A DNA stretch of 64,000 bases from a virus: IMG/VR virus record IMGVR_UViG_3300043497_000005. One strand, 5' to 3'. A model generated the notes under the pieces. It was not told the origin of the DNA and did not search any database. It was given only the letters and a program-made list of their open reading frames with translations. Position numbers and translations under genes: made by a program. This document shows positions 7,988 to 52,202 of the stretch, in pieces. The stretch's first letter is position 1, and each line of letters begins with the position of its first letter.

Positions 7988-8060
7988 GGCAAGGTATGGC
8001 ACGGCGCGTTCAGGCAGCGTTAGGCACGGACGGGCACGGTCTGGCTGGCTTGGCTGGCTA
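7988..8060 (+). ncRNA. Orphan GGY-NN pentamer unit (candidate stand-alone guide RNA)
   Basis: GGCAA GGTAT GGCAC GGCGC GTTCA GGCAG CGTTA GGCAC GGACG GGCAC GGTCT GGCTG...; same grammar as the 28-29.5 kb array; intergenic; followed by a hairpin and T-tract. Confidence 0.7.
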
Positions 8061-8062
8061 CG

Positions 8063-8095
8063 AAAGGGGCTCCCTCACGGGGGCCTCTTTCATTT
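8063..8095 (+). terminator. Intrinsic terminator-like hairpin (possibly bidirectional)
   Basis: AAAGGGGCTCCC-TCAC-GGGGGCCTCTTT followed by CATTT. Confidence 0.6.
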
Positions 8096-25482: not shown

Positions 25483-25529
25483 AGGCCGGTCACCTGAAGC
25501 CGCCCCCGGCCCTTGGTGACCGGCCTTTT
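25483..25529. terminator. Hairpin between convergent genes
   Basis: AGGCCGGTCACC...GGTGACCGGCCT followed by TTT. Confidence 0.55.
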
Positions 25530-26065
25530 CATTTCTGCGCAGTGAACAGCGGCGTATGCCGCCACGCCAGTTGCGGGTTGAGCCACGCGCATTGAAAACT
25601 CCACAACGCGGCTGCATCACTCTCGTCGGTGGTGGTCGCGGGCCATCCCATTTGCTGGCAGCGCTCCAGCGTCAGCGGCTTGGCGATCTTCGCTTTCATA
25701 TTCTGGCCGATGAAGTGTGCTCGCACTTGGCTTACTGATGCTTGGCGAAGATCGTAGCGGTCGTAGCACCACTCCTCCAGATGCTCGGCGAGGCCGAACA
25801 GCAACCGCGTGGTGCTAATATTGGTCTTGCCGCCCATGAACGATGGCACCGCCGGGCTCTCGTACACGATCAGGTCAGGGCTCATGCGATGGTGCTTCAC
25901 CATCGCCTCAAGCCACTTCCTGAATTCACGATAGGTCTCGGCGTGCGATGCGCCGCCCTTGCTGAACCGCACGTGCCCACATAGCGGGATCGAGCCGGGC
26001 ACGCCAGCGGCCCAGCCTGTTGTCGTAGCTAAATCGAGCGCGAGCACGCGACCAGTAAAGGTCAC
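25529..26065 (-). CDS. RuvC-like Holliday junction resolvase
   Basis: LALDLATTTGWA, IVYESP, DESDAAA catalytic pattern. Confidence 0.8.
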   Translation of the reverse strand: MTFTGRVLALDLATTTGWAAGVPGSIPLCGHVRFSKGGASHAETYREFRKWLEAMVKHHRMSPDLIVYESPAVPSFMGGKTNISTTRLLFGLAEHLEEWCYDRYDLRQASVSQVRAHFIGQNMKAKIAKPLTLERCQQMGWPATTTDESDAAALWSFQCAWLNPQLAWRHTPLFTAQK

Positions 26066-26606: not shown

Positions 26607-27431
26607 ATGGCTGTGAAGAAAAAAGACGACACCGATCAGGCGATCATGATCAAGAAGATCGAGCCTGACATTGTACGTTGCGCGATCCTCGGTGCTTCGC
26701 CGATGATCATGCATCGGTTCGCGTTCAAGGCGTGGCAAGAATTGCTGTTGCCTGCCGCCAAGAAGAACGCGGCAGCGAAGGCGGAGAATCTAAAGCACGA
26801 TCCGCTCAACGAATTTCGTGAGTGCTGCTACCGCAACCGCTCGGAAGAAGAACCGACGGCGATCCACTATCCGGCTGGCGCGTTCTCGAAGGCACTGGCA
26901 GCGGCAGCGCTCGACCTGCCCGGAGCAACCAAGGCGCAAATCCTGCGGCTTGTCGGCGTCGTCAGCACACAGATCAATATCTATGGCACGCCCACGCTGG
27001 GCATGGATATGGTGCGATCCAGTGACATGGCCAGAACACCGGACGTGCGCACGCGCGCATATCTGCCGGAATGGTGCTGCACGGTGGACATCAGCTACAT
27101 CAAGTCGCTGATCGGGAAAGAGCAGATCATCAACCTGCTTGATGCTGCCGGTCTCATCGTCGGCATCGGCGACTACCGCCCGCAGAAGGGCGGACAGTAC
27201 GGTCGCTTCGAGGTAGTGAGCCCGGACAACAAGGACTTCGTGCGTATCATGAAGCAACAGGCGCGCATAGCGCAGGAAGCTGCGCTGGAGACCCCTACGT
27301 TCTTCAACGAGGATTCCGCTGAGCTATATCAGTGGTTCAATGAGGAGACCGAGCGTCGTGAGAAAACCGTGCCCTCGTCCAAGGGTAACGGCAAACCGAA
27401 GCCGCAGCCGACACAGGTGCCGGTGCAGTAA
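26607..27431 (+). CDS. RAMP/Cas7-like protein (putative guide-RNA-binding effector)
   Basis: N-terminal strand ILGASPMIMH and C-terminal Gly-rich loop GLIVGIGDYRPQKGGQYGRFEV resemble RAMP (Csm3/Cas7) hallmarks; lies upstream of the repeat array. Confidence 0.7.
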   Translation: MAVKKKDDTDQAIMIKKIEPDIVRCAILGASPMIMHRFAFKAWQELLLPAAKKNAAAKAENLKHDPLNEFRECCYRNRSEEEPTAIHYPAGAFSKALAAAALDLPGATKAQILRLVGVVSTQINIYGTPTLGMDMVRSSDMARTPDVRTRAYLPEWCCTVDISYIKSLIGKEQIINLLDAAGLIVGIGDYRPQKGGQYGRFEVVSPDNKDFVRIMKQQARIAQEAALETPTFFNEDSAELYQWFNEETERREKTVPSSKGNGKPKPQPTQVPVQ

Positions 27432-27439
27432 ACGAAAGC

Positions 27440-27474
27440 GGCGGCGATCAATTATGGTCGCCGCCATTTTTTTT
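27440..27474 (+). terminator. Intrinsic terminator between the RAMP-like gene and its partner
   Basis: GGCGGCGATCA-ATTA-TGGTCGCCGCC, then A and T8. Confidence 0.65.
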
Positions 27475-27489
27475 GAAAGGAGCGAGACA

Positions 27490-28044
27490 GTGAGCAGTAG
27501 ATCAGACAAACGCCAAAGAGAACTCGATGCCGCGATCCGCGCATGCGAGGATGAAACAGGCCATGCGATACCGAAGGTGGTGGTGGCGGCAGCGCAGGAC
27601 CCAACGCACCCAAGCTATGAGGTGCTCACCCTCGAATTTAATTGGAACGTTCAAGAGGCTGCACAAGCACACTGGGAAGATCGAGCGCGCGAGCTTATCC
27701 GCGAGGTGCGTGTGATGGTGGTTTACGGTGACGCCAAGATCGCGACGCCGGTTTACGTCAGCGATCCGCGCGTTCCCGAGTCGTCGTTTATCCGCACAGT
27801 AAGAATCGCGCGAAGCGGACCAACCAAAAGGGCGGTGCTGCAGGCGGAGTGCGACCGGATCGCTTCGGCGATCAACCGCGCGATAGGTCTGGCTGTTGTG
27901 TTCGATCTAGAACAGCGTTTCGAAAACGCGCTTGCCGAGATCATGATGGCGGCCAACGAGCTAGGCAGCCGCGACGACGATGGCGACGACGATGACGGTG
28001 GCAGCGCATCACCGCGCGGGCCGGAGCCATCACCGGCACCGTGA
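27490..28044 (+). CDS. Partner protein of the RAMP-like gene
   Basis: GTG start with AAGGAG RBS; PKVVVAAAQDPTHP...FNWN...AAQAHW..RARELI; ends 8 nt before the array. Confidence 0.7.
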   Translation: MSSRSDKRQRELDAAIRACEDETGHAIPKVVVAAAQDPTHPSYEVLTLEFNWNVQEAAQAHWEDRARELIREVRVMVVYGDAKIATPVYVSDPRVPESSFIRTVRIARSGPTKRAVLQAECDRIASAINRAIGLAVVFDLEQRFENALAEIMMAANELGSRDDDGDDDDGGSASPRGPEPSPAP

Positions 28045-28052
28045 GCTTGCTT

Positions 28053-29570
28053 GGCATGGCAGGCACGGTGAGGTGAGGTACGTTGAGGCGCGGCTGTGCG
28101 CGGTCTGGTTGGGCTCGGTTAGGTCAGGCAGGCAAGGCCCGGCGAGTTGTTGTGAGTTATGATATGGCAAGTCGCGGCGTGGCAGGCGCGGTTAGGCCGG
28201 GCGAGGTTAGGTGCGTCGCGGCAGGGTATGGCGGGCCGAGGCCGGGCTGGGCAGGACTGGTGAGGTCGGGCCGGGATTGGTCAGGCAGGGCGCGGCGAGG
28301 CGCGGCGTGTTGTGTCCGATTAGGTTTGGGCAAGGCAGGCATGGTGTGGCGCGTTTGGCGATGGCGAGTTGAGGCTAGTCCGGTTGAGACGAGGCATGTC
28401 GCGGCGAGGCAGGCGAGGTAGTCTGGCCACGTCTAGCTCGGTCACGGCGAGGCTTGGCAGGCGCGGTGTGTCAGGTCAGGTCATGTCATGGCCGGGTAGG
28501 TCAAGGCGCGGCCCGGTAAGTCATGGCGTGGCAGGCAAGGCATGGTGTGATCGTGTGGGGTGAGATCAGGTGCGACGAGGCAAGGCAGGCGCGGTTAGGC
28601 GGCGAGGGGCACGGCTGGGCACGGCGAGGCAAGGTATGGCAGGCATGGCTCGGTTTCGGCGGCGCTCGGTGTTGCACGGTCAGGCCGGGCGTGGCGTGGC
28701 ATGGCAGGCACGTTATGGCTGGGCAAGGTAGGTCATTGGTGTGGCAGGCGACGTCTGGCGCGGGCGGCTAGTTGTGGTCGGGTCAGGCAAGGCATGGCAG
28801 GCGAGGTACGGCAAGGTGTGTTCGTGCGAGGCAAGGTCGGGCAGGCTGGGCAAGGCGCGTCGGCGCTTGGTGAGGCAGTGTGCGGCGTGGCTGGGCAAGG
28901 TTAGGCAGGCGAGGTGCGGCGAGGCCGGATATGGCACGGTCCGGCTTGGTGGGGTTTGGCGCGGCAGGCGCGGCAAGGCGAGCCCGGTCAGGCCGGGGTC
29001 GGCTCTGGCGAGGCACGGCATGGCGAGGCAGGCTGGGCGGGCTTCGGTTTGGCAAGGCATGGCTGGTTGCGGTTAGCTCTGTTGCGGCGTGACGTGGCAG
29101 GCTGGGCTTGGCTTGACGCGGTCGGGTTCGTTGCGGTGGGGCAGGTTGTGGTCAGGCGTGGCAGGCGAGGCGTGTTTTGGTCCGGCAGGATAAGGCTAGG
29201 TCTGGCAAGGCAGGCTGGGCTTGGTATGGCGCAGCGAGGCGGGGCACGATGGGGCAAGGCACGGCAGGCGCGGACTGGCTCAGTATGGCTAGGCGCGGCT
29301 GGGTAAGGCGCAGCGAGGCAGGCAAGTTAGGGTCTGTCGCGGCGAGGCAAGGACGGCCCGGGCGTGGCGAGGATTGGCACGGCAGGCAAGGTTGGGCGTG
29401 GCGAGGTCTGGCATGTAGCGGCTAGGTGAGCCACGGCAGGCTAGGCACGCACAGGTGACGTGAGGCATGGCGAGACGAGGATGGGTTGGGTGACGCGAGG
29501 CTAGGTCAGGCAGGCTGGGCTCGGTAGGGTCGTGCATGTTCGGGTTGGTCACGTCGCGGAGTGGCAGGCA
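28053..29570 (+). ncRNA. GGY-NN pentamer array, 25 units delimited by GGCA(GG); candidate guide-RNA array
   Basis: Strict 5-nt periodicity; 26 GGCAGG delimiters; 21 of 25 units have length 5n+4; terminator follows. Confidence 0.85.
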
Positions 29571-29575
29571 AAAGG

Positions 29576-29604
29576 AAACCGGGAGAATTACTCTCCCGGT
29601 TTTT
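29576..29604 (+). terminator. Terminator closing the array
   Basis: AAACCGGGAGA-ATTAC-TCTCCCGGTTTTT; overlaps the end of the convergent ORF. Confidence 0.75.
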
Positions 29605-29773
29605 CCTTGCTGGTTAGTTCGTGGTATCGAATGCACCACGTGTCGATATCGCTCTGCGTGTAGCCGCGCGAGTTCATCTCTTTCCAGAATTCCTCTCGCG
29701 TCATCCGTTTGTCGCCGTACTGACCGAGCAGGTACGCCAGCGATTCGTATTTGGTGAGCGGCTTGGTCTTCAT
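29588..29773 (-). CDS. Hypothetical protein (gapped near-match to array unit 24)
   Basis: MKTKPLTKYESLAY...YTQSDIDTWCIRYH...; ATGA overlap. Confidence 0.65.
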   Translation of the reverse strand: MKTKPLTKYESLAYLLGQYGDKRMTREEFWKEMNSRGYTQSDIDTWCIRYHELTSKEKPGE

Positions 29774-30420
29774 GGCTGCGGCCTGTGCTCCCGGCAGAAC
29801 CACCGACCCGGCTTGCCCTTCAACAGACTGACACCGTAACCCCAGCTAGCGTCGCGACAGCACACCTCGCAGAAATTGGAATCGGGCCAACCGGGGCCGA
29901 TCAGGTAGCGCTTGGTTTTCACGCCGCCACCGATGACGTCATTGACCGGCACCACGCGGCACTCAGTGCGGTTGCGCTCGTTGGTGCGCGTGATCGGCCA
30001 CATCTCCTCGCCGGTTTCCCAGAACCACTTCTTCAGCGCCTGCATGTCCATCACGTAGACGTTGAGGCCAACCTCGCTCTTCGGTGTCGAGAACGCATAG
30101 ATCAGGATGTCGGCGACCGAGGTGTACATCCAGCCTTGTCGCTCGTAGCCCGGGACCGTACAGGTCCACGTCTCCAGCGCGAAGGCGGTGTATCCCGTCG
30201 TCCCGTCGGTGGGCCAGTGCACGATCTTCTCCTCGACAGTCTTCTGCCCGCCCGGCGTTTCTACCAGCGTGTCGACGTAGCGCTGGGTTGGGTCGTTGTT
30301 GTCGAGAAAGCGATACCTGTCTGGAAAATATCGGTCATAGAAAAATGGCTTCAGGATCATGTCGCGCTGCCTGACCTGCCAAGCATTCTTGATGTCGAAA
30401 GTGTTGTCGATGTCGCTCAT
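29770..30420 (-). CDS. Putative PD-(D/E)xK nuclease-like protein with C-terminal Cys motif
   Basis: YVDTLV...VEEK, ADILIY; CEVC...WFCREH. Confidence 0.55.
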   Translation of the reverse strand: MSDIDNTFDIKNAWQVRQRDMILKPFFYDRYFPDRYRFLDNNDPTQRYVDTLVETPGGQKTVEEKIVHWPTDGTTGYTAFALETWTCTVPGYERQGWMYTSVADILIYAFSTPKSEVGLNVYVMDMQALKKWFWETGEEMWPITRTNERNRTECRVVPVNDVIGGGVKTKRYLIGPGWPDSNFCEVCCRDASWGYGVSLLKGKPGRWFCREHRPQP

Positions 30421-31421
30421 CCTGCAGCCGCCTCTGTCCCGGCTTCAACGAACAGGTTGGTGAAGTCAGAACGCTCCTCACGCTGGTTGGCCTCGCCATA
30501 TGGCGGATAAGAACCGGCGCGGATGATCTCGTAGGATTTTTCCGGCTTCTCCGAGTGCTTACCACGCGGTGCCTCGAAGTGCGTCGGGATGCTGGCTGCC
30601 GCCGGACGTGTGGTGGTTTCACCGCGCGTGGCGAATATCATGTGCTCGGTGCTGTTGCGATAGTAGCTGCCGAGCCCGAACGGCGGCGGCTTGATCCACG
30701 TGATGACGGTGCGGTGCTGAAAGCCCCAATGCTCGACCAGCTTGCACGCCTCGCTCATGAAGTTGTTGGTCGTCCAGCAATACATCTGACAGCCTTCTTC
30801 TTCATCGGCCCACGCCGCAACGTCAAGCTCACGCAGTTGTTCGATGGTCTGCATCGCATAGCCCGGCTTTGCGCGTGCAGCGATGGACAACCAATCGTAA
30901 TCCCAAGCCGGATCGATGACGATAGTGCGGAATTTTCCGACGCGGGGCACGAGGTTCAGGATACGATATTCATCGGCCTGTACCCTCGTGGTGCGCAGAA
31001 TACTCGACACCTCGTTGCGCTGAAGCGTCGGGCAGATCGTGCCATCCTTCACCAACCGCTTGAAAGTAACTTCATCGAGCCGGGCGATCTTGTCGATGGT
31101 GTTGTAGTCGGGTGGAAGCATCTTGGCCAAATGGGAGTCAATGACTCCCATTTGGGAATCGCACCACGTCGCAATCCGCATGAACATGCTGGCAACACGA
31201 CGGTGGAATTTCAGATCACTATCGAGCACATTGATCCACTGCCCGTGCTCCAGACCAGCCTTAGCCCTATGCAGATCGCGGCCAAGCTCGATGAACCCAG
31301 TGACGGCGGTTTGCCTAATAACATCCCATTGATCGTTGAGCCGCTTCGCCCACTGTCGTCTCGTCAGTTGTAATTCGCCCGGCTTGATGACAGTCAATTC
31401 CCGGCTTGGCTTCTTAGGCAT
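30417..31421 (-). CDS. MT-A70-family adenine methyltransferase with N-terminal DNA-binding-like domain
   Basis: IVIDPAW, YCWTTN, WGF..TVITWIK, G.Y.RNSTEH, HSEKPE. Confidence 0.85.
   Translation of the reverse strand: MPKKPSRELTVIKPGELQLTRRQWAKRLNDQWDVIRQTAVTGFIELGRDLHRAKAGLEHGQWINVLDSDLKFHRRVASMFMRIATWCDSQMGVIDSHLAKMLPPDYNTIDKIARLDEVTFKRLVKDGTICPTLQRNEVSSILRTTRVQADEYRILNLVPRVGKFRTIVIDPAWDYDWLSIAARAKPGYAMQTIEQLRELDVAAWADEEEGCQMYCWTTNNFMSEACKLVEHWGFQHRTVITWIKPPPFGLGSYYRNSTEHMIFATRGETTTRPAAASIPTHFEAPRGKHSEKPEKSYEIIRAGSYPPYGEANQREERSDFTNLFVEAGTEAAAG
31127..31155. promoter_or_regulatory. 29-bp perfect palindrome, copy 2 (inside the methylase gene)
   Basis: CCAAATGGGAGTCA-A-TGACTCCCATTTGG. Confidence 0.65.
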
Positions 31422-31899
31422 GCTGTTTCCTTACTGCGAGCGGGTTGGTGTACATGCGGAAGTGCGTCGGGCAGTACGACGACATGCTGCCGTTATAGTC
31501 GTAGCCGCGCGGCTTGCCGCAGACCTTCTGCAGCTTCCACTTGCCGCTGCGCTCCGGCAGGATGGCCTTGCAGCCGTTCGACCCGTTGTCGAGATACTCA
31601 ACGCCGGGGGTCTTGCTGATGGCGTCGACCTCGGTGACGGTCAGGGGAGTTCGGGGTGGCATCTTGGTCACGTTGTTGCTCCTTGGTGGTGGTGGCTTGG
31701 GTGGTGGCTTGAAGGTCATCAGCGAGGTTGTGGTCCTCCTCTTGAATGCCTCTCTAGGCAGGCGATGCTTGCGCCCGGCAATGGCATTGCGGGAGACGGC
31801 GTAGCCAGCCTGTTGCAGGCCATTGGCCACGTACGACAACGAACCGCCCTCATCCCATAGACGGACGAGGAGGGCGTCGGCCTCGTCGGTCCATATCAT
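31414..31899 (-). CDS. gcrA: GcrA-family regulator
   Basis: MIWTDE...LVRLWDEG.S...VSRNAIAGRKHRL plus C-terminal CKAIL...CG...YCPTH. Confidence 0.85.
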   Translation of the reverse strand: MIWTDEADALLVRLWDEGGSLSYVANGLQQAGYAVSRNAIAGRKHRLPREAFKRRTTTSLMTFKPPPKPPPPRSNNVTKMPPRTPLTVTEVDAISKTPGVEYLDNGSNGCKAILPERSGKWKLQKVCGKPRGYDYNGSMSSYCPTHFRMYTNPLAVRKQHA

Positions 31900-35424: not shown

Positions 35425-35767
35425 AGGCTACATCAAGATTTTCCGGACCTACTCCTACGTGGACAAGAATCCGGTGATCGACAAGGTGCGCACCATCATG
35501 CAAGACGAAGGGCTGTTCGATCAGCTAACCATCGCATCCGAGATTTCGAATGTGGGGCGTGCCACGATGGCAAACTGGTTCCACGGACCAACAAGAAATC
35601 CACAGCACCACACGGTCGCTGCGGTGATCACCGCGATGGGCTATGAAGAACAGTTCGTGAAAAAGAGAGCCATCGACATCGAGCGCGAGCGCAAGGTCGC
35701 CGCCGAGTGGACAGCGAAACAACCGAAACCGAAGAAAAGGAGCAAACCAAATGGTAGACGTAGCTGA
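35417..35767 (+). CDS. HTH protein
   Basis: IASEISNVGRATMANWFHGPTRNPQ. Confidence 0.65.
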   Translation: MARGYIKIFRTYSYVDKNPVIDKVRTIMQDEGLFDQLTIASEISNVGRATMANWFHGPTRNPQHHTVAAVITAMGYEEQFVKKRAIDIERERKVAAEWTAKQPKPKKRSKPNGRRS

Positions 35768-36773
35768 AATCGAGCGGCGTGTTGATCGCGCCATCACCTC
35801 CGCGATCCCGATCAGCGTCAAGTTGGGCGGCATCGATCCCGAGAACTACGGTCAGGTGATGGAGTTTTCGAAGGCGATGGCAACCTGCCGCGCTGGCATT
35901 CCGCAATGGCTGCGCGGATCGGTTGGTGACTGCCTGATGATCTGCACGCGCGCGCTGCGCTGGGGCATGGACCCGTTCTTCGTCGCGGAGAAATCCTACG
36001 CGATGCAGAACAAGAGCGGTGAGGTCAGGGTTGGTTATGAAAGCCAGTTGGTTCATGCCGTGATCGAGGCGCTGGCTCCGCTCAAGGGCAGGCTGCGCCA
36101 TCGCTTTGAGGGCGAAGGCGATGACACCGTCTGCATCGTATCCGGCACCTTCAAGGGCGAGGACGCGCCGCATGAATACACCAGCGAGCCGCTCGGCAAG
36201 CGGGTCAAGGACATCGGCAGGAACGAGAAGGGCAACTTCCGTGGCTCACCGCTGTGGCTGCAGAAGCCGCGCGTGCAGTTGTTCTATGATGCGTCGCGCG
36301 ACTGGGCGCGCATCAATTGTCCTGACGTGCTGGCTGGCGTCTACACCCGCGACGAACTACCAGACCACGAGCCGGTAGACGTAACGCCAGACAGTGGAAA
36401 GAAAACCGATGCATTGATGCAGCGGTTAAAGGAAGGGCGAGAGAAGCACGCTGACCATAGGGGATTCGATGCAGAGCATGTCGCACGAGAGGCGACGCTA
36501 AGCTCAGTGATCGAGGGCAGCACCAATTCCGGTGAAGCCGAACAGGGAGAGAACGATGAGCGCGTCAATGAGCCTGACGTTGAAGGACGGCAGGCAGATG
36601 CTGGTGATCGACCAGATGGAGATCGAAACGAAGACCGAGGCGAAGTCGCTGTCGGCGATGATCGAGAAGTGGGCGGAGAGCCTGCCGGACAGCAAGCCGA
36701 GGACGAGGACCAAGGCAAGGAAGACACCTTCCCGCCGGACCGCACCCCAGCGAAGCCCAAAGGCAAACGGTGA
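35751..36773 (+). CDS. recT: RecT-like single-strand annealing protein
   Basis: GDCLMIC..A.RWGMDPFFVA, W...PRVQL...WARINCPDVLAGVYTRDE; acidic tail; same operon as RecE. Confidence 0.75.
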   Translation: MVDVAEIERRVDRAITSAIPISVKLGGIDPENYGQVMEFSKAMATCRAGIPQWLRGSVGDCLMICTRALRWGMDPFFVAEKSYAMQNKSGEVRVGYESQLVHAVIEALAPLKGRLRHRFEGEGDDTVCIVSGTFKGEDAPHEYTSEPLGKRVKDIGRNEKGNFRGSPLWLQKPRVQLFYDASRDWARINCPDVLAGVYTRDELPDHEPVDVTPDSGKKTDALMQRLKEGREKHADHRGFDAEHVAREATLSSVIEGSTNSGEAEQGENDERVNEPDVEGRQADAGDRPDGDRNEDRGEVAVGDDREVGGEPAGQQAEDEDQGKEDTFPPDRTPAKPKGKR

Positions 36774-37096
36774 CACTGAGGCAACGCAAACCTCGCTTGT
36801 CTGATCCGGGCTATCTTGCATGGCTCCGCAAGCAACGCTGCGCCTGCGGATGCCTGCAGCCACCACCGTGCGACGCCGCCCACCTTCGTGCGACATCGTT
36901 CGAGCACGGCAAGCCCGGCGGTTGGGGTCGACCCGATGACCGCTGGGCCTTGCCGCTGAAGCATAATCACCACATGGCACAGCACCACCACGGCAACGAA
37001 CTTGCATGGTGGGCCGCGCACGGTGTCAGCGATCCCTTCGCGCTGGCGCAGCAATACTATCAACGCTATCAAAACATCAAAGGAGCTACCGAATGA
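36770..37096 (+). CDS. DUF968-like Zn/HNH-type nuclease
   Basis: YLAWLRKQRCACGC...DAAH...DDRWALPL..NHH. Confidence 0.7.
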   Translation: MTLRQRKPRLSDPGYLAWLRKQRCACGCLQPPPCDAAHLRATSFEHGKPGGWGRPDDRWALPLKHNHHMAQHHHGNELAWWAAHGVSDPFALAQQYYQRYQNIKGATE

Positions 37097-37485
37097 ACGA
37101 CCAGACCCCAGTTCGCCGCAGCCCGCTCGTCAACGTCGAGAACATCGACCATGATGTGCAGCAAGTGCTGTCGCGCAAGTTCACCGATCCGATGAAGGCG
37201 ATGCACGACCTCGATGATCTTGGCCGCATGTCAGCCGAGGCGGTTCTGACCCAGTACGAGGCCGCCGCCATCGCGGTCGAGGACATGGGAATCTCCGTCA
37301 AGGAGATGGTGAAGAAGCTCGGCGAGGCCTTGCTCGAATGTGCTGACGACATGAAGCACATCAACGAGACCGCCGTCGAGATTCGCGAGAAGGGTAAGCA
37401 CTCGCAGGCTCTGATCGAGCGCGTCAACGATCTGTCGAAGTCGATCCGCGCGGCCTGCGCTGAATTCAAGAAGCAGGTGGGCTGA
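37093..37485 (+). CDS. Helical hypothetical protein
   Basis: AAGGAG RBS. Confidence 0.65.
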   Translation: MNDQTPVRRSPLVNVENIDHDVQQVLSRKFTDPMKAMHDLDDLGRMSAEAVLTQYEAAAIAVEDMGISVKEMVKKLGEALLECADDMKHINETAVEIREKGKHSQALIERVNDLSKSIRAACAEFKKQVG

Positions 37486-44321: not shown

Positions 44322-45884
44322 CTAAGCCATTGCATCAGGATTCTCGGCAGCGTCTTCGCTAAGCAGGCGCTGCACGTCGAGCAGCATTTCGTTGGCCTCG
44401 CGCTTCAGTTCGACCTCTTGGCGGTTGATCGGCCCCCAGTGCTGGCGCAGATAGCGCAGACCGACGCCGGTCACGAAGGCATGAAACGCCGGGGAGAACT
44501 TCGACAGGAATTGAAACTTGGCACCGTCGCCGCTGCCGTAGTTGCCGAGATCGTCCTTGTCGAGCTTCACGCCCTCTTGGAACGTCGGCAGGAATCCATT
44601 CGGGTTGGCCCAGTATTCCTGCAGCAACGGCGGGATCGATGAGGAGCACGAGCGGATATTCCACGAGGTCTGGTACAGCGACGCCTCGGCGGTGTCTGCG
44701 CTGACGTTCTCCGCGCTCATGTCGCGGCCCTCGCAGTAGCGCCCGGAGCTTTCGCGCGCGCCGAGCCCGAGCATCAGCACGAACAGATGGCGCAGCGTGT
44801 CGATGCCGTCGACGCTGTTGTCCATTCCGAGCGCGGCAAACTCGTCGCGATACCACGTCAGCGCATCCTTCTCCGACAGGTTGCGATCCGCCTGCGCCGC
44901 CGTCGTTGCTATCGGATGACCCTGCATCAGCCGCGTCGCCGCCAGCCCGAAGCATTGCGCGATGCCAGCGGTGTAGCCGAGCGGCAGCTTGCCGCGATCA
45001 CGCCATTTGTAATTGGCGATGGCGGAATGCTTTGCGATATCTGCGATCCTGCGCGCCTGATCCGCTGGCATACGGTCATTGCCCGACGCCTTGGCGTTCT
45101 CCAGATAATCCAGCGCAGCCCACGTCTTTGGGCCGATGATGCCGTCTGACGTCACACCCTCGCCATAAGCCGATTGATAACCGCGCACTGCTGCATCGGT
45201 CACGGGGCCGAAATCGCCGTCCGCTGGAAAGACGCCGAGCAATGTCTGCACGTACACAACATGGTCGCCACTGTCGCCGAGGCCTATCGTTGGCCGTCCC
45301 GGTTCTTCCTCCGGTATGAGAGGAGGTTCGATCTCTTCGACCTCGTCGGGCGGTGGCTCTGCCGATATCTTCTTGCCGGTGAGCGCAGACGCCAGTGCGA
45401 CGCACACGTCATCGAAGTATTCCTGATAGGCGTCGGCATCGGCGGAGCTATCGACAAACACCACCTCGACCAGCACAGATGCTTCCGCCGTCGAGTTCAG
45501 GAAGAACAGGTTGTCGCGATACTTCGGCCCGCGATTTGGCAGGCCTGTCGCCTTGGCGATTCCATCCGCGACCTTTTTCGCGAGGTCCTTCTGTGTCAGG
45601 TACAGACACTCGGTCCCCATCTCGGCGCTGGTGGTTTGATAGGCGTTGAAGTGCACACTGACATCGAGCGTTCGCTTTTGCGCGTTGTGCCAGTTGACGA
45701 TGCGGTTCAGGTTCTCGTTCTGCGAATGGCTCCAATCGTCGTGATATGTCATCGCGTCGACGCCAGCGGCGCGCAACAGCCGCGCGGTTTCGTCAACGAC
45801 ATCGCGCGCGCAATTCACTTCGTCCAGATAGCCTGATGCGCCGCGCACATACTTGCCGTGTCCGGACGAAATGCAGATCGTCAT
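44322..45884 (-). CDS. Endolysin: amidase_3 + PG-binding + putative lysozyme-like domain
   Basis: ISSGHG, SVHFNA, LVEVVFVD; DGDFGPVT...DGIIGPKTW; RESSG...SLYQ; start MTICISS at 45884. Confidence 0.85.
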   Translation of the reverse strand: MTICISSGHGKYVRGASGYLDEVNCARDVVDETARLLRAAGVDAMTYHDDWSHSQNENLNRIVNWHNAQKRTLDVSVHFNAYQTTSAEMGTECLYLTQKDLAKKVADGIAKATGLPNRGPKYRDNLFFLNSTAEASVLVEVVFVDSSADADAYQEYFDDVCVALASALTGKKISAEPPPDEVEEIEPPLIPEEEPGRPTIGLGDSGDHVVYVQTLLGVFPADGDFGPVTDAAVRGYQSAYGEGVTSDGIIGPKTWAALDYLENAKASGNDRMPADQARRIADIAKHSAIANYKWRDRGKLPLGYTAGIAQCFGLAATRLMQGHPIATTAAQADRNLSEKDALTWYRDEFAALGMDNSVDGIDTLRHLFVLMLGLGARESSGRYCEGRDMSAENVSADTAEASLYQTSWNIRSCSSSIPPLLQEYWANPNGFLPTFQEGVKLDKDDLGNYGSGDGAKFQFLSKFSPAFHAFVTGVGLRYLRQHWGPINRQEVELKREANEMLLDVQRLLSEDAAENPDAMA

Positions 45885-45895
45885 TGGGGTTTTCC

Positions 45896-47506
45896 TTATC
45901 TGGAGATCGGCGGCCTGACCGCCTCTTGTGCTCGCTGGATGCGCTGCAATTCCTCCGCCGTCCACGTCTGCGTTCCGGAGATCGGCGGGGTTACCCTGCC
46001 GCCGGGATCGCCCGGTGTCGGCGACCACGATTCACCCGGAGAACCTTCGCCCGGCGTGAACGACGGCGTCAGTTCGTTCGGATCGTCTTCCGGAGACCAC
46101 GATTCTTCCGGAGGTGTCCCGGGTGGGAACGCTGGCGTTAGCTCGTTCGGGTCATCTTCAGGCGACCACGACTCGCCTTCCTCGGGCGGCGCTGGCGGGC
46201 CTTCCATTTCCGGCGGAGCGACACGACCCGGTCCCGGGTCCTGTTTCCACTTCATGCCAGCGTCGGTGCCGCTCGGGTTCTCAACCTGACAGCGCGTGGT
46301 GTAGCCGACACCGCGCGTGTAATTGTGCTCGGCTTCCTTGATCCGATAGGTGCCGTCGACGCCCGGGCGTGCGCCGTCGATCACGACATAGCCACCGGCC
46401 TTTGCTGTCGGTTCGCCATTGAGCAACACCCAACCGGTGCCGCGCCTGCCTTGGACGTCGGCACCGGCACCTTGGTTGGTTTGCTCGCCCGTGGCTTTGT
46501 CGGCCACCGAGTTGACGGCATGCGCAACCGCATTGGTGCCGCCGAACGGCGTGACCGCGCTGATCTGGCTCTTGATGTCTTCCCATCCGCCTTTGAACAC
46601 GTCGAAGAATTTCGATTGCGCCTCGCCATATTGCGGACGCCCGATGTACGGCTTGATGCGCCAGCCGATCAGGTTGATGCCCCAGATCGCCTCGATGGTT
46701 GGCATCGGCGATCCATCGGCGGCGGTGGATTCCCCGGCGCTGACCAGCACCGCCTTGTTCTTCATGATCTTGAAAAACCCGCCGGTCTCGCGCGCGATGC
46801 GTTCTCCGAAGTTCATCGGGCTGTCATTGATGCGCCAATAGTCGCGCGAAATCTTTTCCATCGCAGGCGACATCACGACCTGCAGCCCGGCAGCGCCGAA
46901 CACCTTGGTCATCATGTCCTTGAGCGGAATCTTGCCACCACCACCGCCGCCTGCGGTCGCAGCGTCACCCGTGCCGCCGTCCCCACCGGCACCGCCAGCG
47001 ACACCGCCCTCGCCGCCAGCGCTGTCGTCCTCCTTGCCAGCGCCCAAGAAATCGCTTTGCACTTCCTTGTTGAGACCCTTGTCGTTGTGGCCCTTGCCCT
47101 CGATCCACAACCGACGACCGCCGCCGCGACGACCGAACCCGGACTCGCAGTTCTCGACCCAGCCATCGAACACGATCTCAAGACCGGGGCCGCCGAACTT
47201 GGCTTCGCCCATCGGTGCCGTTTGAATTATGCCCTGCCCGCCTGCGGCGCTCTCCCTGCCGTAATCGGTCAGGCGCGGACCCTCACCTTTCCAGCCGAGG
47301 CAGACCTGTAGCTCCGCGCCGTCGGGCGGAATCTGAAGCTCGGCGTTGCGATCATCAAGCTCGATGTTGCACTCGTCAGAACCGCCACCGAGCTTGTCGA
47401 TCACCTGCACCGAGATCAGATACGGAAACAGCCGGGACGAGATGTCCTTTCCGTGCACCAGTATTTGACACCATGCGTGCCGACGCGGCCCCTGATGCTC
47501 GACCAT
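45896..47506 (-). CDS. Late control/tail protein D (P2 gpD-like)
   Basis: DECNIELDDRN, QVCLGW, G.Y.I....H.Y.RG.GYTT; position in the tail operon. Confidence 0.8.
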   Translation of the reverse strand: MVEHQGPRRHAWCQILVHGKDISSRLFPYLISVQVIDKLGGGSDECNIELDDRNAELQIPPDGAELQVCLGWKGEGPRLTDYGRESAAGGQGIIQTAPMGEAKFGGPGLEIVFDGWVENCESGFGRRGGGRRLWIEGKGHNDKGLNKEVQSDFLGAGKEDDSAGGEGGVAGGAGGDGGTGDAATAGGGGGGKIPLKDMMTKVFGAAGLQVVMSPAMEKISRDYWRINDSPMNFGERIARETGGFFKIMKNKAVLVSAGESTAADGSPMPTIEAIWGINLIGWRIKPYIGRPQYGEAQSKFFDVFKGGWEDIKSQISAVTPFGGTNAVAHAVNSVADKATGEQTNQGAGADVQGRRGTGWVLLNGEPTAKAGGYVVIDGARPGVDGTYRIKEAEHNYTRGVGYTTRCQVENPSGTDAGMKWKQDPGPGRVAPPEMEGPPAPPEEGESWSPEDDPNELTPAFPPGTPPEESWSPEDDPNELTPSFTPGEGSPGESWSPTPGDPGGRVTPPISGTQTWTAEELQRIQRAQEAVRPPISR

Positions 47507-47507
47507 G

Positions 47508-47819
47508 TCACATCCCTGCCGGTGCGGTGCCCTGCGATCCGAATTGCGTCATGTTGTCCTCCGGCGTCTTGCCCCACAGCACCACGGTGTTCTTGCGTTG
47601 CGGGATGCCGCTTAGAACATCGTAATCAATCGGGATGCGCACCTGCGTGCCCACGGGAAGGAACGGCGAGTAGCGATGGCACTTCGCCAGATGCGGGTTG
47701 TCGTCCAGCATACGCTCCAGCATCATCGGCGCGCGGTTGCGATAGCGCCGCCACAGGATCAGGTCGACGGTGATGTAATCCGAGCCGACGGTGACAAGGT
47801 CGTAAGATGAGACGCTCAT
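47508..47819 (-). CDS. Tail protein X
   Basis: TVDLILWRRY...LDDNPHLA...LPVGTQVRIP. Confidence 0.85.
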   Translation of the reverse strand: MSVSSYDLVTVGSDYITVDLILWRRYRNRAPMMLERMLDDNPHLAKCHRYSPFLPVGTQVRIPIDYDVLSGIPQRKNTVVLWGKTPEDNMTQFGSQGTAPAGM

Positions 47820-48397
47820 GCTCCAATGGCTCCCGAACTGTAAAGCTGGGCGATGTTGCTGGCTCCGTCGTTCGGGATCGGCACACGCTGGAAGCTCGCC
47901 TCGAACTCGATCATCTGTCCGATGCCGTCATAGCCGAGGAACGTGTGGCCACGGCTCAGCGTCTCGATGATGTACCAACCGAAGTGCCAGCCATCGCCCC
48001 TGATCAGGATGTGCGCCTGACCCAGCCGTCGCATGTTGTCGAGCACGTCGAGATGGGTCAGGCCGCCGGATGATGCGCCGCCGCCGAGATGCTCGCGCAG
48101 CACGTCGTCAGCGGCGCGCGATGCTTCCGGCCCCTGTATCGGATGCGTGATGTTGCGAGGCAGCCCGCTGTTGGGATCGCTGGAGTTGCGCGATTTGCCA
48201 GCAAAGAAATGCGGGAAGACCTTGCCCTTCAGCGAGATGTGCTCGTCGGCCTCACCAACCCACTCACGATACATCGCAGCGCCAGCGATTTCCTTCTTGG
48301 CCCAATCCGCGCCGGTCTGGTGCGCGAAGTTCTCGACGTTCATCGGAAAGACCTGAAATTGAATCGGTCCCCACTGAAACATAACCCAGTTGGCCAT
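47816..48397 (-). CDS. Tail protein U-like (P2 gpU)
   Basis: WGPIQF, ISLKG, GDGWHFGWYIIETL. Confidence 0.8.
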   Translation of the reverse strand: MANWVMFQWGPIQFQVFPMNVENFAHQTGADWAKKEIAGAAMYREWVGEADEHISLKGKVFPHFFAGKSRNSSDPNSGLPRNITHPIQGPEASRAADDVLREHLGGGASSGGLTHLDVLDNMRRLGQAHILIRGDGWHFGWYIIETLSRGHTFLGYDGIGQMIEFEASFQRVPIPNDGASNIAQLYSSGAIGA

Positions 48398-51300
48398 TAT
48401 GCCGCTCCGATGTCGGAATAAGAACTCCAGCGTGCCTCGCGCACTTCGCGGTCCGCCTGTCTGCGCATCGACGCGCGCGCGAACTGCACCTCGTTGTCGT
48501 TGACCCTCATGTTGAGGTTGACCCGTTGATCGCGCGTGACCGGCGTGTCGTCGGTTGGCTGCACGGGCGGCATCTCCGCCGTCGGCGCTGTCGGTGCTGC
48601 CTTGTTGTTTCTGGCTTCGCGCTCCGCTCTCATTTGATCTGGCGTCAACCGGTTATCGAGACCGCGCTGCACCGCCGCTCTCTCTTCAGCCGTTCCTGCA
48701 TAGGCACCGAGACCTTCACCAACGATGGCGCGGTTGCCCGTGATGCCCATGTGGATTTTAGCCGGATCGCTCATGTAGCGCGCGCCAGTACCACCAGCGC
48801 CGCGTCGCGCCGCTTCCTCGATCACCTTGAGACGACGCGGATCATTCAGCCCCAGCACCTTGCCGGTCTTCGGATCGACAATGTCAACATCGGCGGCGCG
48901 GCCTTTATCGTGACGATGCGACCCGGTGTGACCGTGCGCTCCCTCCATGCGTTGACCGCCAGAGGTGACGCGAATCTTGACGCCAGAGGCTTCAGCTGCG
49001 CCCTCCAGCGCATCTCTCAGTTGCGGATCGAGCTTACCCTTGCGAATACCGGCAACACGCCCCTGTGCTTCTTCGACTAAGTTGCCGCCACCGCCTTCCA
49101 ACTGCGTGGTCGTCTCAGCCGGTGCCGCCGTTGCTCCTCCGTCAGCTACCCTGCCGCGCTCCGCACCGACGCCACGGTTGCCGCCGATGCCAGCGAAGTT
49201 GCCGATGCCGGTGTTGCGCGCGCCGTACCACGATCCCCAGCCATGCTTGCTGGCGTGCTTGAGCGCAAAGTCGATGGTGTCCTTTTCGTTGGCCGGATCG
49301 CGCGGGTCTTTGCCGGTCGCCTTCTGATAGGCGTTGCCGAGGCCGCCGCCCATGTAGAGTTGGAAGGCACCCCAGCTATCCTCGCGCCCGTTGTAGCTGC
49401 CCTTGCCTGTTCGCTTCACAGACGACTGAAACGTGCCGAGCCCTTCCGACTTCGCGACCGCCACCGCCGTGTCTGGATCGATGTTGTATTTTTTCGCCGT
49501 CTCACGGATGTGCTGCTCCATGCCGCGCGGATCGCCGCCCTTGCCAACGCGGCCACGCGCAGCACCGACGCCGGGTGTGCCGCCGCCGCCACCTCCGCCA
49601 CCTTCGATCTTGCTGCCGCCACCGCCGCCATACGATGAGCCGCCACCGTAGCCAGCCGCAGGACCAGCGCGCTCGAATGGACCGCCGCCCCCTCCGCCAC
49701 CGCCACCACCTCCGCCACCATAGCCGCCGCCGGAGCCACGGAAATTCGCTGGCAAGAACTTGGAATCAGAACTGCCGCCATACATGGCGTTCTGGTAGCC
49801 ACCGCCCGGCAGAGCACCGCGACCAATGCCGATGCCGGGTCCGCCCTCACCGCGTATGCCGCCACTGCCGGGAGTGCCGCGCTGCTTCAGGTCTTCGCGG
49901 CTGTAGCCGTAGGCCTTTGAAGCAACCCACGCCGCTGCATCCTTCGCGCTACTGGAGAACGACGAGCGCTGGTACAGGTTCTGGTTCGGTCCGGGCGGCG
50001 ACGGCGGCGTGGTCAGCTTCTTCTCAAGCTCCTCCTGTCGCCGCTTATGCTCTTCAAGCTCGAACTGTCCGCTCACGCCGGGTGCGGCTTCGTTGGAGAA
50101 GTGCGGTATCCGCAGCCCGTGCGGACCGACGAGGCTGAAGTTCGGTGCCTCGCCCTTGAAGCCGCCAGTGATATATTTCACCCAACTGCCAACGTATTTG
50201 AGCGTCTCGCCGAGCCCCTTCAGCTTTGCGGTAAAGATGATGATGGCTTCAGGCGCGCCGATGTTGACCAGAAATTCGCCGAACGTCTTCGACAATTCCT
50301 TGAGATTCACCATCAGGCCCTCGATGCCACCGGACGCGGTCTTGTCGATGGCGATGCCATCCTTGACAGCACGGCTTTGCTCGGCAGCTTCCTTCAGCAA
50401 TCTGATGCGCTCGCCGATCAAGCCGTTGTTGTCGGCTTCCATGATCTTGCGCAGGAACAGCGCCTCTCTGGCGTCGATCTTTTCAAGCCTGCGATAGGCA
50501 GCTTCCTTGTCGCGCACCTTTCTGAAATTATCGATCACGAACGCGGTGACGTCGCCGCCGCGCTTCTTGATGTTTTCGATCTGCTCCTGCCACTGGCTTT
50601 CCGGCATGCCGAACACGTCGCCGACCCTACCGGAGGTGAGGCTCTGCATCGTGTTCTTCAACAGCACTGCGCCCTTTGAGGTGTCGCCCATCTGATCGGT
50701 GGCGATCTCAAGCAGCGCTCCCATCCGCGCCAGACCGTTCTCTCCGCCGTAGCCGATCTGCTTGGCCACCTCGGCTAGCTCCGAGCCGTTGGCGATCAGG
50801 TCCTTGATGTCGAGGTTGCCGCTGCGCGTTAGCTCGCCGATCATCTCCATCGTGCGCGCGAACTCGCTCGCGGGGATGTTGAGGTTGCGCATCAGATCGG
50901 AGGTGAGCTTGGCAAGGTTGCCGGGATCGACGTCCATGCCCTTGGCGACCATGTTGAGCCTTGGTGCCAGATCGGCGGCTTCTTTCGCCGTGATCTTCAG
51001 GCCGTTGCGCAGCCGCTCCATTCCCTCATAGGTCTTGTCCCAATCGGTCGACGTCGCTCTCGCCGTCTCGGTGAGCCTGTCCTTGACCTCGCCGATGGCA
51101 GCCGCCGTCATCCGGGTCCTGTTCTGCAACAGCGCCATCTTCTTTTCGGTGTCGGCGAAATTGAGGTAGGCGCGGCGCGCGAGATCGGCAGCGGTAGCGA
51201 CGCTGGCGTAGCGCGTCACCATCGATTGAAGCTCGTCGCCTAGCTCTCGAACAAGCGAGGTCTGCCGCTTCTTCGCGATAGCGTCCTTTGCCGCTGCATC

Positions 51301-52044: not shown

Positions 52045-52202
52045 CTGTGGACCCAAATGGTGATGACAGGTTCACCCTTATCGACCCTTTGATCCACGAA
52101 CTCAACGTTAGCCACGGGACCGGCACCATCGGTGTCGGCCACCACTACACGCTTTTTTTCATCATGGCGCTGTAGCCACGAGATCAGTTCACCGACGGTC
52201 AC
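52041..52202 (-). CDS. Small hypothetical protein (not in ORF track)
   Basis: Read by hand: MTVGELISWLQRHDEKKRVVV...; GTGA/ATGA overlaps at both ends. Confidence 0.55.
   Translation of the reverse strand: MTVGELISWLQRHDEKKRVVVADTDGAGPVANVEFVDQRVDKGEPVITIWVHR

What the first reader, a model, noticed from the sequence alone, without database searches (positions are those of the whole stretch)
29439..29662. Code cracked on unit 24: NN dinucleotides spell codon positions 1-2 of the adjacent gene, skipping the wobble base
Unit 24 (29439-29508) gives NN = TA AC CA GA GA AT GA GA TG TG GA GA TA CA. The minus-strand ORF at 29621-29662 reads TAC ACG CAG AGC GAT ATC GAC ACG TGG TGC ATT CGA TAC CAC (YTQSDIDTWCIRYH). 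Ten of 14 dinucleotides match under an NN-skip-1 rule, with the skipped base at codon position 3. A rough uniform-background estimate is about 1e-9 per site, about 3e-3 over both strands and 25 units; real dinucleotide bias would weaken this. The guide equals the sense strand, so it would pair with template DNA, not mRNA. Inference: the true target is a homologue in a related phage (Y-T-Q/H-D/E-D/E-I-D/E-D/E-W-C-D/E-D/E-Y-H), and skipping the wobble base makes synonymous escape useless.
Basis: partly seen in the sequence, partly recalled or inferred. Interest (0 to 1): 0.95.

Follow-up and report, generated by a model that had tools for sequence, protein, structure and literature searches.

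The report
VIPR guide RNA aimed at rival phage
The repeat array is a phage VIPR guide-RNA array, a system first published in 2026, and unit 24 follows the published skip-every-third-base rule to target a small gene in a rival soil phage, so the weaker match to the phage's own neighbouring gene is a by-product of homology.

Summary

The self-match alone is only marginal. The bead-level shuffle gives p about 0.001 per unit, or about 0.03 over 25 units. At base level it is 20/28, p about 0.02-0.05.

The "code" is right but not new. It is the 1-nt-skip rule of VIPR systems (bioRxiv 10.64898/2026.04.26.720920, .720927 and 2026.10.15.759431). These papers also published the wobble-skipping rationale.

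The locus meets the sequence-level VIPR features:
- The Vipr protein has a RAMP fold and hits SUSP1 Vipr (PDB 36pp) at E 2e-7.
- A conserved accessory gene follows it.
- A 25-unit staggered GGY-NN array follows that gene.

The homologue in a complete 85-kb phage (IMGVR_UViG_3300043634_000027) matches unit 24 at 25/28 bases and 12/14 beads (YTQDDIDSWCEQYH). Units 1 and 23 hit its RuvC-like and RecT-like genes within the same 8 kb, all wobble-aligned. Other skip lengths give nothing.

Both phages co-occur in the same soil runs. Earlier notes of this scan flagged VIPR-like loci on other DNA.

Verdict: a new member of a known kind, of modest interest.

The parts
26607..27431 (+). vipr gene: a 274-aa RAMP-fold protein that would coat the guide RNA, one protomer per GGY-NN bead
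   Evidence: The AF2 model has pLDDT 85. All top Foldseek and VIA-align hits are Csm3/Cmr4/Cas7 (E 1e-4, Z 8.9, rmsd 3.4 A over 151 aligned residues). A family profile hits 'SUSP1 Vipr protein', PDB 36pp_D, at E 2e-7 over the thumb-to-G-loop region. Window residues R150 and D189-Y190-R191 align with SUSP1 R138 and D177-W178-R179, which the structure paper shows reading GGY. The protein belongs to phrog_4652 and has no Pfam hit.
27440..27475 (+). terminator-like hairpin with a T8 run, between vipr and the accessory gene
   Evidence: Consensus scan and the sequence itself.
27490..28044 (+). vipr-accessory (vap-like) gene, 184 aa, function unknown
   Evidence: tblastn finds homologues beside vipr in about 48 fetched loci. 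These include Mycobacterium phage Donkeykong gp50 and Cyanophage Cy-LDV1 g33. It belongs to phrog_15946. The AF2 model has pLDDT 88.6 but no PDB fold match at E <= 0.001.
28058..29566 (+). staggered vrRNA array: 25 units of 8-16 GGY-NN pentamer beads, separated by a 4-nt GGCA step (GGCAGGC)
Evidence: Period-5 autocorrelation drifts to 5k-1 at longer lags. The bead logo is G 0.89, G 0.75, Y 0.89, N, N. An independent dynamic-programming parse recovers the same units. Same-strand arrays sit next to vipr homologues in about 70 of 80 IMG/VR loci.
29439..29512 (+). unit 24: a 14-bead guide (29439-29508) plus the GGCA step
   Evidence: NN list verified. The best natural target is G004 46062-46102 (-) at 25/28 bases.
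29622..29662 (-). near-cognate self site for unit 24: 10/14 beads, 20/28 bases, below the published 80% threshold
29588..29773 (-). 61-aa gene of unknown function (stop codon included). It is the own-genome homologue of unit 24's target gene.
   Evidence: Translation. It has no Pfam or PHROG hit. Homologues of 60-75% identity were fetched from relatives.
29576..29602 (.). hairpin serving as a bidirectional terminator. It closes the array on the + strand and the convergent 61-aa gene on the - strand.
   Evidence: The TAA stop of the 61-aa gene lies in the loop.
28062..28130 (+). unit 1: a 13-bead guide whose targets are RuvC-like resolvase genes of relatives
   Evidence: It scores 23/26 at G004 44555-44592 (-), against a null maximum of 20 in 3000 shuffles. 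It scores 22/26 at L004 7608-7645 (-), with nine consecutive perfect beads. The own copy at 25593-25630 (-) scores 19/26.
29385..29438 (+). unit 23: a 10-bead guide with a probable target in the RecT-like gene of G004
   Evidence: It scores 17/20 at G004 52068-52096 (+), p about 0.003, in frame with the skip at the wobble position. The window's own RecT homologue (35724-36770) has an indel at this site.
25529..26065 (-). own RuvC-like resolvase gene, which carries the near-cognate self site of unit 1 (25593-25630)
   Evidence: phrog_159 at E 1e-13.

Best explanation
The locus 26607-29610 is a VIPR (Viral Interference Programmable Repeat) system of a soil phage. It has three parts: a Vipr RAMP protein, a conserved accessory gene, and a 25-unit staggered array of GGY-NN pentamers.

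By analogy with the characterised SUSP1 system, each unit would be cut out as a vrRNA. Vipr protomers would polymerise on it, one per bead, and bury each GGY. The exposed NN dinucleotides would pair with double-stranded DNA while every third target base is flipped out. Binding would block transcription.

Unit 24 is one such guide. Its best natural target found here is a conserved motif (YTQ-D-DID-x-WC-E-x-YH) in a small early gene of a co-occurring rival phage. That phage, G004, is a complete 85-kb genome. Units 1 and 23 hit its RuvC-like and RecT-like genes within the same 8 kb.

The 10/14 match to the phage's own adjacent gene arises because that gene is a homologue of the target. It differs at four whole beads and stays below the identity level used for functional targets, so it is most likely not bound.

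Shown here: the anatomy, the fold and sequence link to Vipr, the gene-array association, the target matches with their controls, and co-occurrence of the two phages. Inferred from the published system: RNA processing, filament assembly, DNA binding and silencing in this phage.
For: VIPR identity:
- RAMP fold.
- Profile hit to SUSP1 Vipr, PDB 36pp_D, at E 2e-7, with the GGY-reading residues conserved.
- Same-strand period-5 arrays next to homologues in about 70 of 80 loci.
- The accessory gene is conserved in about 48 loci.
- No CRISPR-like repeat in the window and no Rfam family.
- The published description matches: GGY/NN repeats, staggered arrays with 1-nt overlap, the 1-nt skip, wobble alignment, either strand, and no self hits at 80% or more.

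Targets:
- Unit 24 scores 25/28 on G004, against a null maximum of 23 in 3000 shuffles. Direct reading.
- It scores 23/28 on two more relatives, one of them 90% complete and without vipr.
- Unit 1 scores 23/26 and unit 23 scores 17/20 on the same phage.
- All three hits are on the sense strand with the skip at the wobble position.
- Skips 0, 2 and 3 give no unit of 10 or more beads at 0.80 or above.
- Own-window identity peaks at 0.78.

Ecology: all eight soil runs that hold 72% or more of the window's VIPR region also hold 92% or more of the G004 target region.
Against: - There is no RNA or functional data for this phage; no RNA run holds it.
- Only 3 of 25 units have a target in the roughly 1.1 Mb I could scan. 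No perfect 28/28 target for unit 24 was found in viral contigs or genome contigs, so G004 may be a near-cognate rather than the intended target.
- Mismatch tolerance of VIPR is not quantified in the papers I read. Binding at 25/28 and non-binding at 20/28 are therefore both inferences.
- The 80% threshold is loose for 10-bead units. Shuffled sets give 0.8 such hits per 85 kb, so the unit 23 target is only probable.
- The VIPR type (I-VII) could not be assigned because the paper's figures and data tables are not held.
Confidence: 0.85

Rival explanations
1. The self-match is a functional self-target. Unit 24 binds weakly to the 3' end of the phage's own convergent 61-aa gene. There it would act as a roadblock that tunes that gene, or stop antisense transcription from running into the array.
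For: - The site lies only 113 nt from the guide, just upstream of the shared terminator.
- The bead-level match is the best in the window.
- A solo vrRNA-like unit at 7988-8047 likewise has its best window hit (19/24, p about 0.006) in the adjacent gene.
Against: - Identity is 71%, below the 80% level at which the papers call targets, and they found no self-targets.
- Four whole beads mismatch, spread across the guide.
- Three non-self homologues match better.
- Across 272 guides in 80 related loci, near-self matches within 6 kb are no commoner than chance: 4 at p <= 0.01 against 2.7 expected.
Confidence: 0.07
2. The 10/14 self-match is a coincidence unrelated to targeting. Unit 24's real target, if any, lies in some other gene family.
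For: - At base level the self-match (20/28) is equalled by an unrelated window site, and 2-5% of shuffles reach it.
- Family-wise significance at bead level is only about 0.03.
Against: - The same site in homologues scores higher, up to 25/28, in the same codon register.
- Each of the four beads that mismatch in self is matched in at least one homologue.
- Two other units hit the same rival phage nearby.
Confidence: 0.05
3. The array is not a guide array at all. It could be a protein-wrapping RNA like the TRAP binding site (triplets with 2-nt spacers), or a G-rich R-loop-forming DNA like immunoglobulin switch regions.
For: - The period is 5, with a fixed triplet and two free bases.
- The G-rich strand is the non-template strand.
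- These were my first hypotheses, before the literature search.
Against: - The NN positions carry information. They match coding sequences of rival phages only at skip 1.
- The adjacent protein is a Vipr homologue.
- Unit lengths vary from 8 to 16 beads, which rules out a ring of fixed size.
Confidence: 0.02

Closest known systems
VIPR type II system of Escherichia phage SUSP1 (Vipr, vap1, four vrRNAs; bioRxiv 10.64898/2026.04.26.720920 and .720927; PDB 36pp)
   Same: - A phage-encoded single RAMP protein with a shared G-loop (GxGD-W/Y-RP...G-R/K-F) and thumb arginine.
- An adjacent accessory gene.
- GGY-NN pentamer guides of 9-16 beads.
- 1-nt-skip, wobble-aligned matches to genes of competing mobile elements, and no self-target at 80% or more.
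   Different: - The sequence match to SUSP1 Vipr covers only about 50 residues (E 2e-7), and this protein is longer (274 aa against 202).
- There are 25 guides in one continuous staggered array.
- Units are separated by a 4-nt GGCA step, not by an invariant 3' tail with a pseudoknot.
- The accessory protein has no recognisable fold match.
- The host is an unknown soil bacterium.
- The targets are recombination and early genes of a full-size rival phage, not a satellite.
Staggered vrRNA arrays noted among the seven VIPR types (fig. S18 legend of 10.64898/2026.04.26.720920)
   Same: [quoted passage not shown] This fits the GGCA|GGC register shift of -1 seen here at 21 of 25 boundaries.
   Different: According to the paper, that architecture was not among those confirmed by small-RNA sequencing. 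Natural targets were reported only for types II, III and V. I could not see the figure or the type assignment, so equivalence rests on the legend's wording.
Class 1 CRISPR backbone proteins (Cas7 family: Csm3, Cmr4, type VII Cas7, gRAMP)
   Same: - RRM core, G-loop and thumb fold (Foldseek E 1e-4; VIA-align Z 8.9, rmsd 3.4 A over 151 aligned residues).
- One protomer per fixed-length RNA segment.
- Periodic base flipping.
   Different: - The guide period is 5 nt, with three bases buried and two read, against a target period of 3. In Cas7 complexes the period is 6 on both strands.
- There is no repeat-spacer array, no cas1/cas2, no Cas10 or Cas3, and no known adaptation machinery.
Vipr-like genes with GGC-NN arrays in cultured phages: Mycobacterium phage Donkeykong (cluster F, gp48-50 region) and Cyanophage Cy-LDV1 (g33-g34)
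   Same: Both have arrays of the same grammar, including GGCAGGC steps, next to a protein ending in the same G-loop motif and next to a vap homologue.
   Different: The arrays are much shorter (about 200-350 bp). In Donkeykong the array is annotated as a protein-coding gene (gp48) and lies upstream of the Vipr-like gene. I did not test their guides.

Membership tests
VIPR (Viral Interference Programmable Repeat) systems | A Vipr protein: a minimal single-RRM RAMP with a G-loop and thumb, related to published Vipr | tested here: met
   The AF2 model (pLDDT 85) hits only Cas7-family RAMPs at the top of the list. A family profile hits PDB 36pp_D, 'SUSP1 Vipr protein', at E 2e-7. The GGY-contacting residues R138 and D177/W178/R179 align with window R150 and D189/Y190/R191.
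VIPR (Viral Interference Programmable Repeat) systems | Adjacent non-coding RNA region of tandem GGY-NN (YNNGG) pentamers on the same strand, with conserved GGY and hypervariable NN | tested here: met
   The array holds 283 beads with the logo G .89, G .75, Y .89, N, N. The same association is seen in about 70 of 80 homologous loci.
VIPR (Viral Interference Programmable Repeat) systems | A minimal locus: vipr plus one accessory (vap) gene, with no cas operon and no CRISPR array | tested here: met
   The 184-aa gene is conserved next to vipr in about 48 loci. No CRISPR-like repeat is found in the 64-kb window. Neighbouring genes are ordinary phage early genes. Whether this gene is one of the published vap1-6 could not be checked.
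VIPR (Viral Interference Programmable Repeat) systems | Guides match other mobile elements under the 1-nt skip rule at 80% NN identity or more, mostly wobble-aligned, with no self-target at that level | tested here: met
   Units 1, 23 and 24 reach 0.88, 0.85 and 0.89 on phage G004, all in sense frame with the skip at the wobble position. Skips 0, 2 and 3 give nothing. The own-window maximum is 0.78. The other 22 units have no target in the sequences scanned.
VIPR (Viral Interference Programmable Repeat) systems | vrRNAs are expressed, processed and co-purify with Vipr | not testable with these tools
   All 24 public runs that hold the region are soil or sediment DNA metagenomes. None is on record as RNA.
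VIPR (Viral Interference Programmable Repeat) systems | RNA-guided binding of double-stranded DNA that silences transcription | not testable with these tools
   This needs EMSA or reporter assays. It is known only for the SUSP1 and P. fulva systems.
CRISPR-Cas class 1 (as an alternative filing) | A repeat-spacer array with contiguous spacers of about 30 nt, plus a multi-gene cas operon | tested here: not met
   Tandem Repeats Finder finds no such repeats. The array period is 5 nt. The only RAMP-fold protein I identified in the locus is the Vipr homologue.

The most novel reading that the evidence does not exclude
Guides and the phage's own near-cognate alleles might be kept side by side on purpose. 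One version is that the guide is genetically linked to the 'immune' allele of the gene it attacks, so that recombinants do not self-target. The other is that new guides are born from neighbouring own genes by an unknown templated process, which would be a first hint of how VIPR guides are acquired.

In this window, unbiased scans place the best near-self hits of unit 24 and of the solo unit at 7988-8047 within about 150 nt of the guides.

My survey of 272 guides in 80 related loci found no general excess of nearby near-self matches: 4 at p <= 0.01 against 2.7 expected. The idea therefore survives only as an occasional or lineage-specific effect.
Probability: 0.06. Interest if true: 0.65.

Novelty: new member of a known kind. 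Interest (0 to 1): 0.3.

Why it matters
The finding is therefore a correct rediscovery, not a discovery.

What this locus adds is modest but useful:
- It is an independent natural guide-target case from an uncultured soil phage with the staggered-array architecture. The preprints report neither small-RNA confirmation nor natural targets for that architecture.
- It shows three guides converging on the early and recombination region of a complete rival phage. That phage carries its own divergent VIPR and is present in the same soil samples.
- It shows concretely how a phage can carry a homologue of its own target without reaching the identity level at which targets are called.

It also flags arrays in cultured phages (Donkeykong, Cy-LDV1) that are annotated as protein-coding genes or left unannotated.

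Tried and rejected
Before finding the literature I considered three other readings.
- A TRAP-like RNA that wraps a protein ring. Rejected because unit lengths vary and the NN bases carry target information.
- An R-loop or switch-region-like G-rich repeat. Rejected for the same reason.
- The 12-bp repeat of Mycobacterium phage Tweety gp54. One search shows it is a different, coding repeat.

Searches that led nowhere:
- Rfam gave nothing relevant.
- Literature searches on 'pentanucleotide', '5-nt periodicity', 'GGCNN' and 'Cas7-like' found nothing.
- Word-based homologue searches for the 61-aa protein found only itself. A two-sequence alignment was needed.
- A gapped exact pattern for unit 24 found only copies of G004 in viral contigs and nothing in genome contigs. 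No 28/28 target is known.
- The G004 array does not target the window in return.
- Units 2-22 and 25 have no significant target in the window, in 83 loci or in three relatives' genomes.
- A register-free search for runs of 7 or more perfect beads gave only chance-level extras.
- The accessory protein has no PDB fold match.

Data that were not available:
- No whole genome is held for the window.
- No RNA runs hold the region.
- The paper's supplementary data are not held, so no VIPR type was assigned.

The idea that near-self matches generally sit next to guides was tested and not supported.
Full report
**What is in the sequence.** A 1.5-kb non-coding stretch lies between the stop of a 184-aa gene (28044) and a strong hairpin (29576-29602). 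It is built from 5-nt beads of the form G-G-Y-N-N. Autocorrelation peaks at lag 5 and drifts to 5k-1 at longer lags. The cause is a 4-nt step (GGCA, seen as GGCAGGC) that breaks the run about every 40-85 nt. A dynamic-programming parse that knows nothing of those delimiters recovers the same units. The bead logo is G 0.89, G 0.75, C/T 0.89, then two nearly unbiased positions.

**Checking the observation.** The minus strand at 29662-29622 reads YTQSDIDTWCIRYH, in frame with an ORF that ends at 29588. Its probable start is the ATG at 29773, giving 61 aa. Ten of 14 dinucleotides match when one target base is skipped per bead, and the skipped base is codon position 3. The next best site in the window has 7/14.

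- One of 2000 order-shuffles reached 10 or more beads. The expected count is about 0.0015 per unit, so about 0.03-0.04 over 25 units.
- At base level the match is 20/28. An unrelated window site equals it, and 2-5% of shuffles reach it.
- Over all 25 units and skips 0-3, nothing else in the window stands out except unit 1 at skip 1, with p = 0.027.

**What the locus is.** The 274-aa protein upstream (26607-27431) has no Pfam family and falls in phrog_4652, of unknown function. Its AlphaFold model (pLDDT 85) matches only Cas7-family RAMPs at the top of both structure searches: Csm3, Cmr4, type VII Cas7 and gRAMP (Foldseek E 1e-4; VIA-align Z 8.9, rmsd 3.4 A over 151 residues).

Homologues are numerous, with 642 found. 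In 80 IMG/VR loci that encode one, about 70 have a period-5 GG array on the same strand within about 1.5 kb. The same grammar, GGCAGGC steps included, occurs in Mycobacterium phage Donkeykong and Cyanophage Cy-LDV1.

That led me to three 2026 preprints.
- The first shows that VIPR systems consist of a Vipr RAMP protein, an accessory gene and vrRNAs of alternating GGY/NN. It also shows that the NN bases read double-stranded DNA with one skipped base per bead, and that the skip falls mostly on the wobble position. Targets lie on either strand and belong to competing phages and satellites. No self-hit reaches 80% NN identity.
- The second gives the structural basis. One protomer binds per bead, GGY is buried, and one target base is flipped into a thumb-bundle pocket.
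- The third publishes the argument that wobble-skipping defeats synonymous escape, and it describes solo vrRNAs.

A profile of the window's protein family hits the PDB chain named 'SUSP1 Vipr protein' (36pp_D) at E 2e-7. The residues that the structure paper shows contacting GGY (R138, D177, W178, R179) align with R150, D189, Y190 and R191 here. The paper's legend for 'staggered' arrays says successive vrRNAs overlap by 1 nt, which fits the 4-nt step. The 184-aa gene is conserved beside vipr in about 48 loci. Its confident model has no fold match.

Word-based searches found no homologue of the 61-aa protein. However, the best hit of unit 24 among the fetched loci (L003, 21/28) turned out to lie in a homologue, in the same codon register. 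An alignment of the two sequences retrieved more homologues.

Unit 24 scores on the homologous site as follows:

| Sequence | NN bases matched | Beads matched | Peptide |
|---|---|---|---|
| Own gene | 20/28 | 10/14 | YTQSDIDTWCIRYH |
| L003/L086 type | 21/28 | 8/14 | YTQGDIDKWCASFY |
| L087 | 23/28 | 10/14 | YTQACIDEWCQQYH |
| L089 | 23/28 | 10/14 | YTQESIDKWCDDFY |
| L084/L085 | 25/28 | 12/14 | YTQDDIDSWCEQYH |

A gapped exact pattern found the L084/L085 sequence in three IMG/VR contigs. All are the same phage. One of them, IMGVR_UViG_3300043634_000027 (handle G004), is 85,350 bp and rated 100% complete.

I then scanned the whole G004 genome with all 25 units:
- Unit 24 scores 25/28, against a maximum of 23 in 3000 shuffles.
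- Unit 1 scores 23/26, against a maximum of 20.
- Unit 23 scores 17/20, p about 0.003.

The three sites lie within 8 kb, in a RuvC-like gene, the 61-aa-family gene and a RecT-like gene. They flank G004's own divergent vipr and array. All three are on the sense strand with the skip at the wobble position. Skips 0, 2 and 3 give no unit of 10 or more beads at 0.80 or above.

Other results fit the same picture:
- Unit 1 also matches the RuvC-like gene of another relative at 22/26, with nine consecutive perfect beads.
- A 90%-complete relative without vipr carries the 23/28 site.
- G004's guides do not hit the window in return.
- No unit reaches 0.80 in its own window.

**Ecology.** The phage is found only in soil and sediment DNA metagenomes, and no RNA run holds it. 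All eight runs that hold 72% or more of the window's VIPR region also hold 92% or more of the G004 target region. The two phages therefore share samples. They could be co-resident prophages or competitors on one host. The runs may not all be independent sites.

**How it most likely works.** Unit 24 is a vrRNA guide against the 61-aa-family gene of rival phages. The match to the neighbouring own gene arises because that gene is a homologue of the target. The own copy differs at four whole beads and sits at 71%, below the level at which targets are called, so it is probably not bound. Processing, filament assembly, DNA binding and silencing are inferred from SUSP1 and were not shown here.

Each of the four beads that mismatch in self is matched in at least one homologue. 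A still better, unsampled target is therefore plausible.

**A possible extra and its test.** Both unit 24 and a solo vrRNA-like unit at 7988-8047 have their best window-wide hit in the gene next door. This could mean linkage of a guide with an immune allele, or guide birth from neighbouring genes. I parsed 272 guides of 10 or more beads from 80 related loci and compared their best near-self hits within 6 kb with shuffles. Four reached p <= 0.01 against 2.7 expected, and nine reached p <= 0.05 against 13.6 expected. There is no general effect.

**Verdict.** The locus is a new member of the VIPR family with a staggered 25-guide array, and natural targets were identified for three of its guides. 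Interest is modest.

Noticed in passing
window 7988-8047 (+), hairpin 8063-8095: A solo vrRNA-like unit of 12 GGY-NN beads followed by a hairpin lies 20 kb from the array. Its best window-wide 1-nt-skip hit is 19/24 at 7842-7876 (-), in the adjacent gene, with p about 0.006. It has no significant hit in G004, G002 or G001. Solo vrRNAs are described in 10.64898/2026.10.15.759431.
   Followed up: partly
L001 3000-3350 (Mycobacterium phage Donkeykong, NC_051648.1 about 36880-37230): A GGC-NN array with GGCAGGC steps is annotated as a protein-coding gene (gp48, hypothetical protein). It sits next to a Vipr-like gp49 and a vap-like gp50. About 20 cluster-F mycobacteriophages gave similar hits. They offer a culturable model for staggered VIPR arrays.
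   Followed up: partly
L002 2985-3180 (Cyanophage Cy-LDV1, BK059895.1): A short, unannotated GGC-NN array lies between g34, which ends with a Vipr-like G-loop motif, and g33, a vap homologue. It sits in the early region next to cI and excisionase.
   Followed up: no
G004 47814-48416 and 49066-49800 (L102, L105): The target phage carries its own divergent vipr (profile E 1.6e-22) and a staggered array of about 12 units with GGCAAGGCAGGC boundaries. None of its guides hits the window, so the conflict looks one-sided within the sequence available.
   Followed up: yes
L040 7560-8000: In a related array the short unit GGCGT GGTTT GGCAC GGCA is repeated three times in tandem. Donkeykong has an internal five-bead duplication. 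Arrays therefore also grow by local duplication.
   Followed up: no
L007 5601-5660 and 7502-7581: Two guides of one related locus have unusually good near-self matches 290-350 nt away (20/24 and 24/32, each p about 0.005). This is the only other locus of the 80 that resembles the adjacency seen in the window.
   Followed up: no
window 30417-31899 and L108: The leftward operon that ends in the 61-aa gene also encodes a YdaS-like protein, a GcrA-like protein and an MT-A70 methylase with a DUF3102 N-terminus (Pfam hits). This suggests an alphaproteobacterial host.
   Followed up: no
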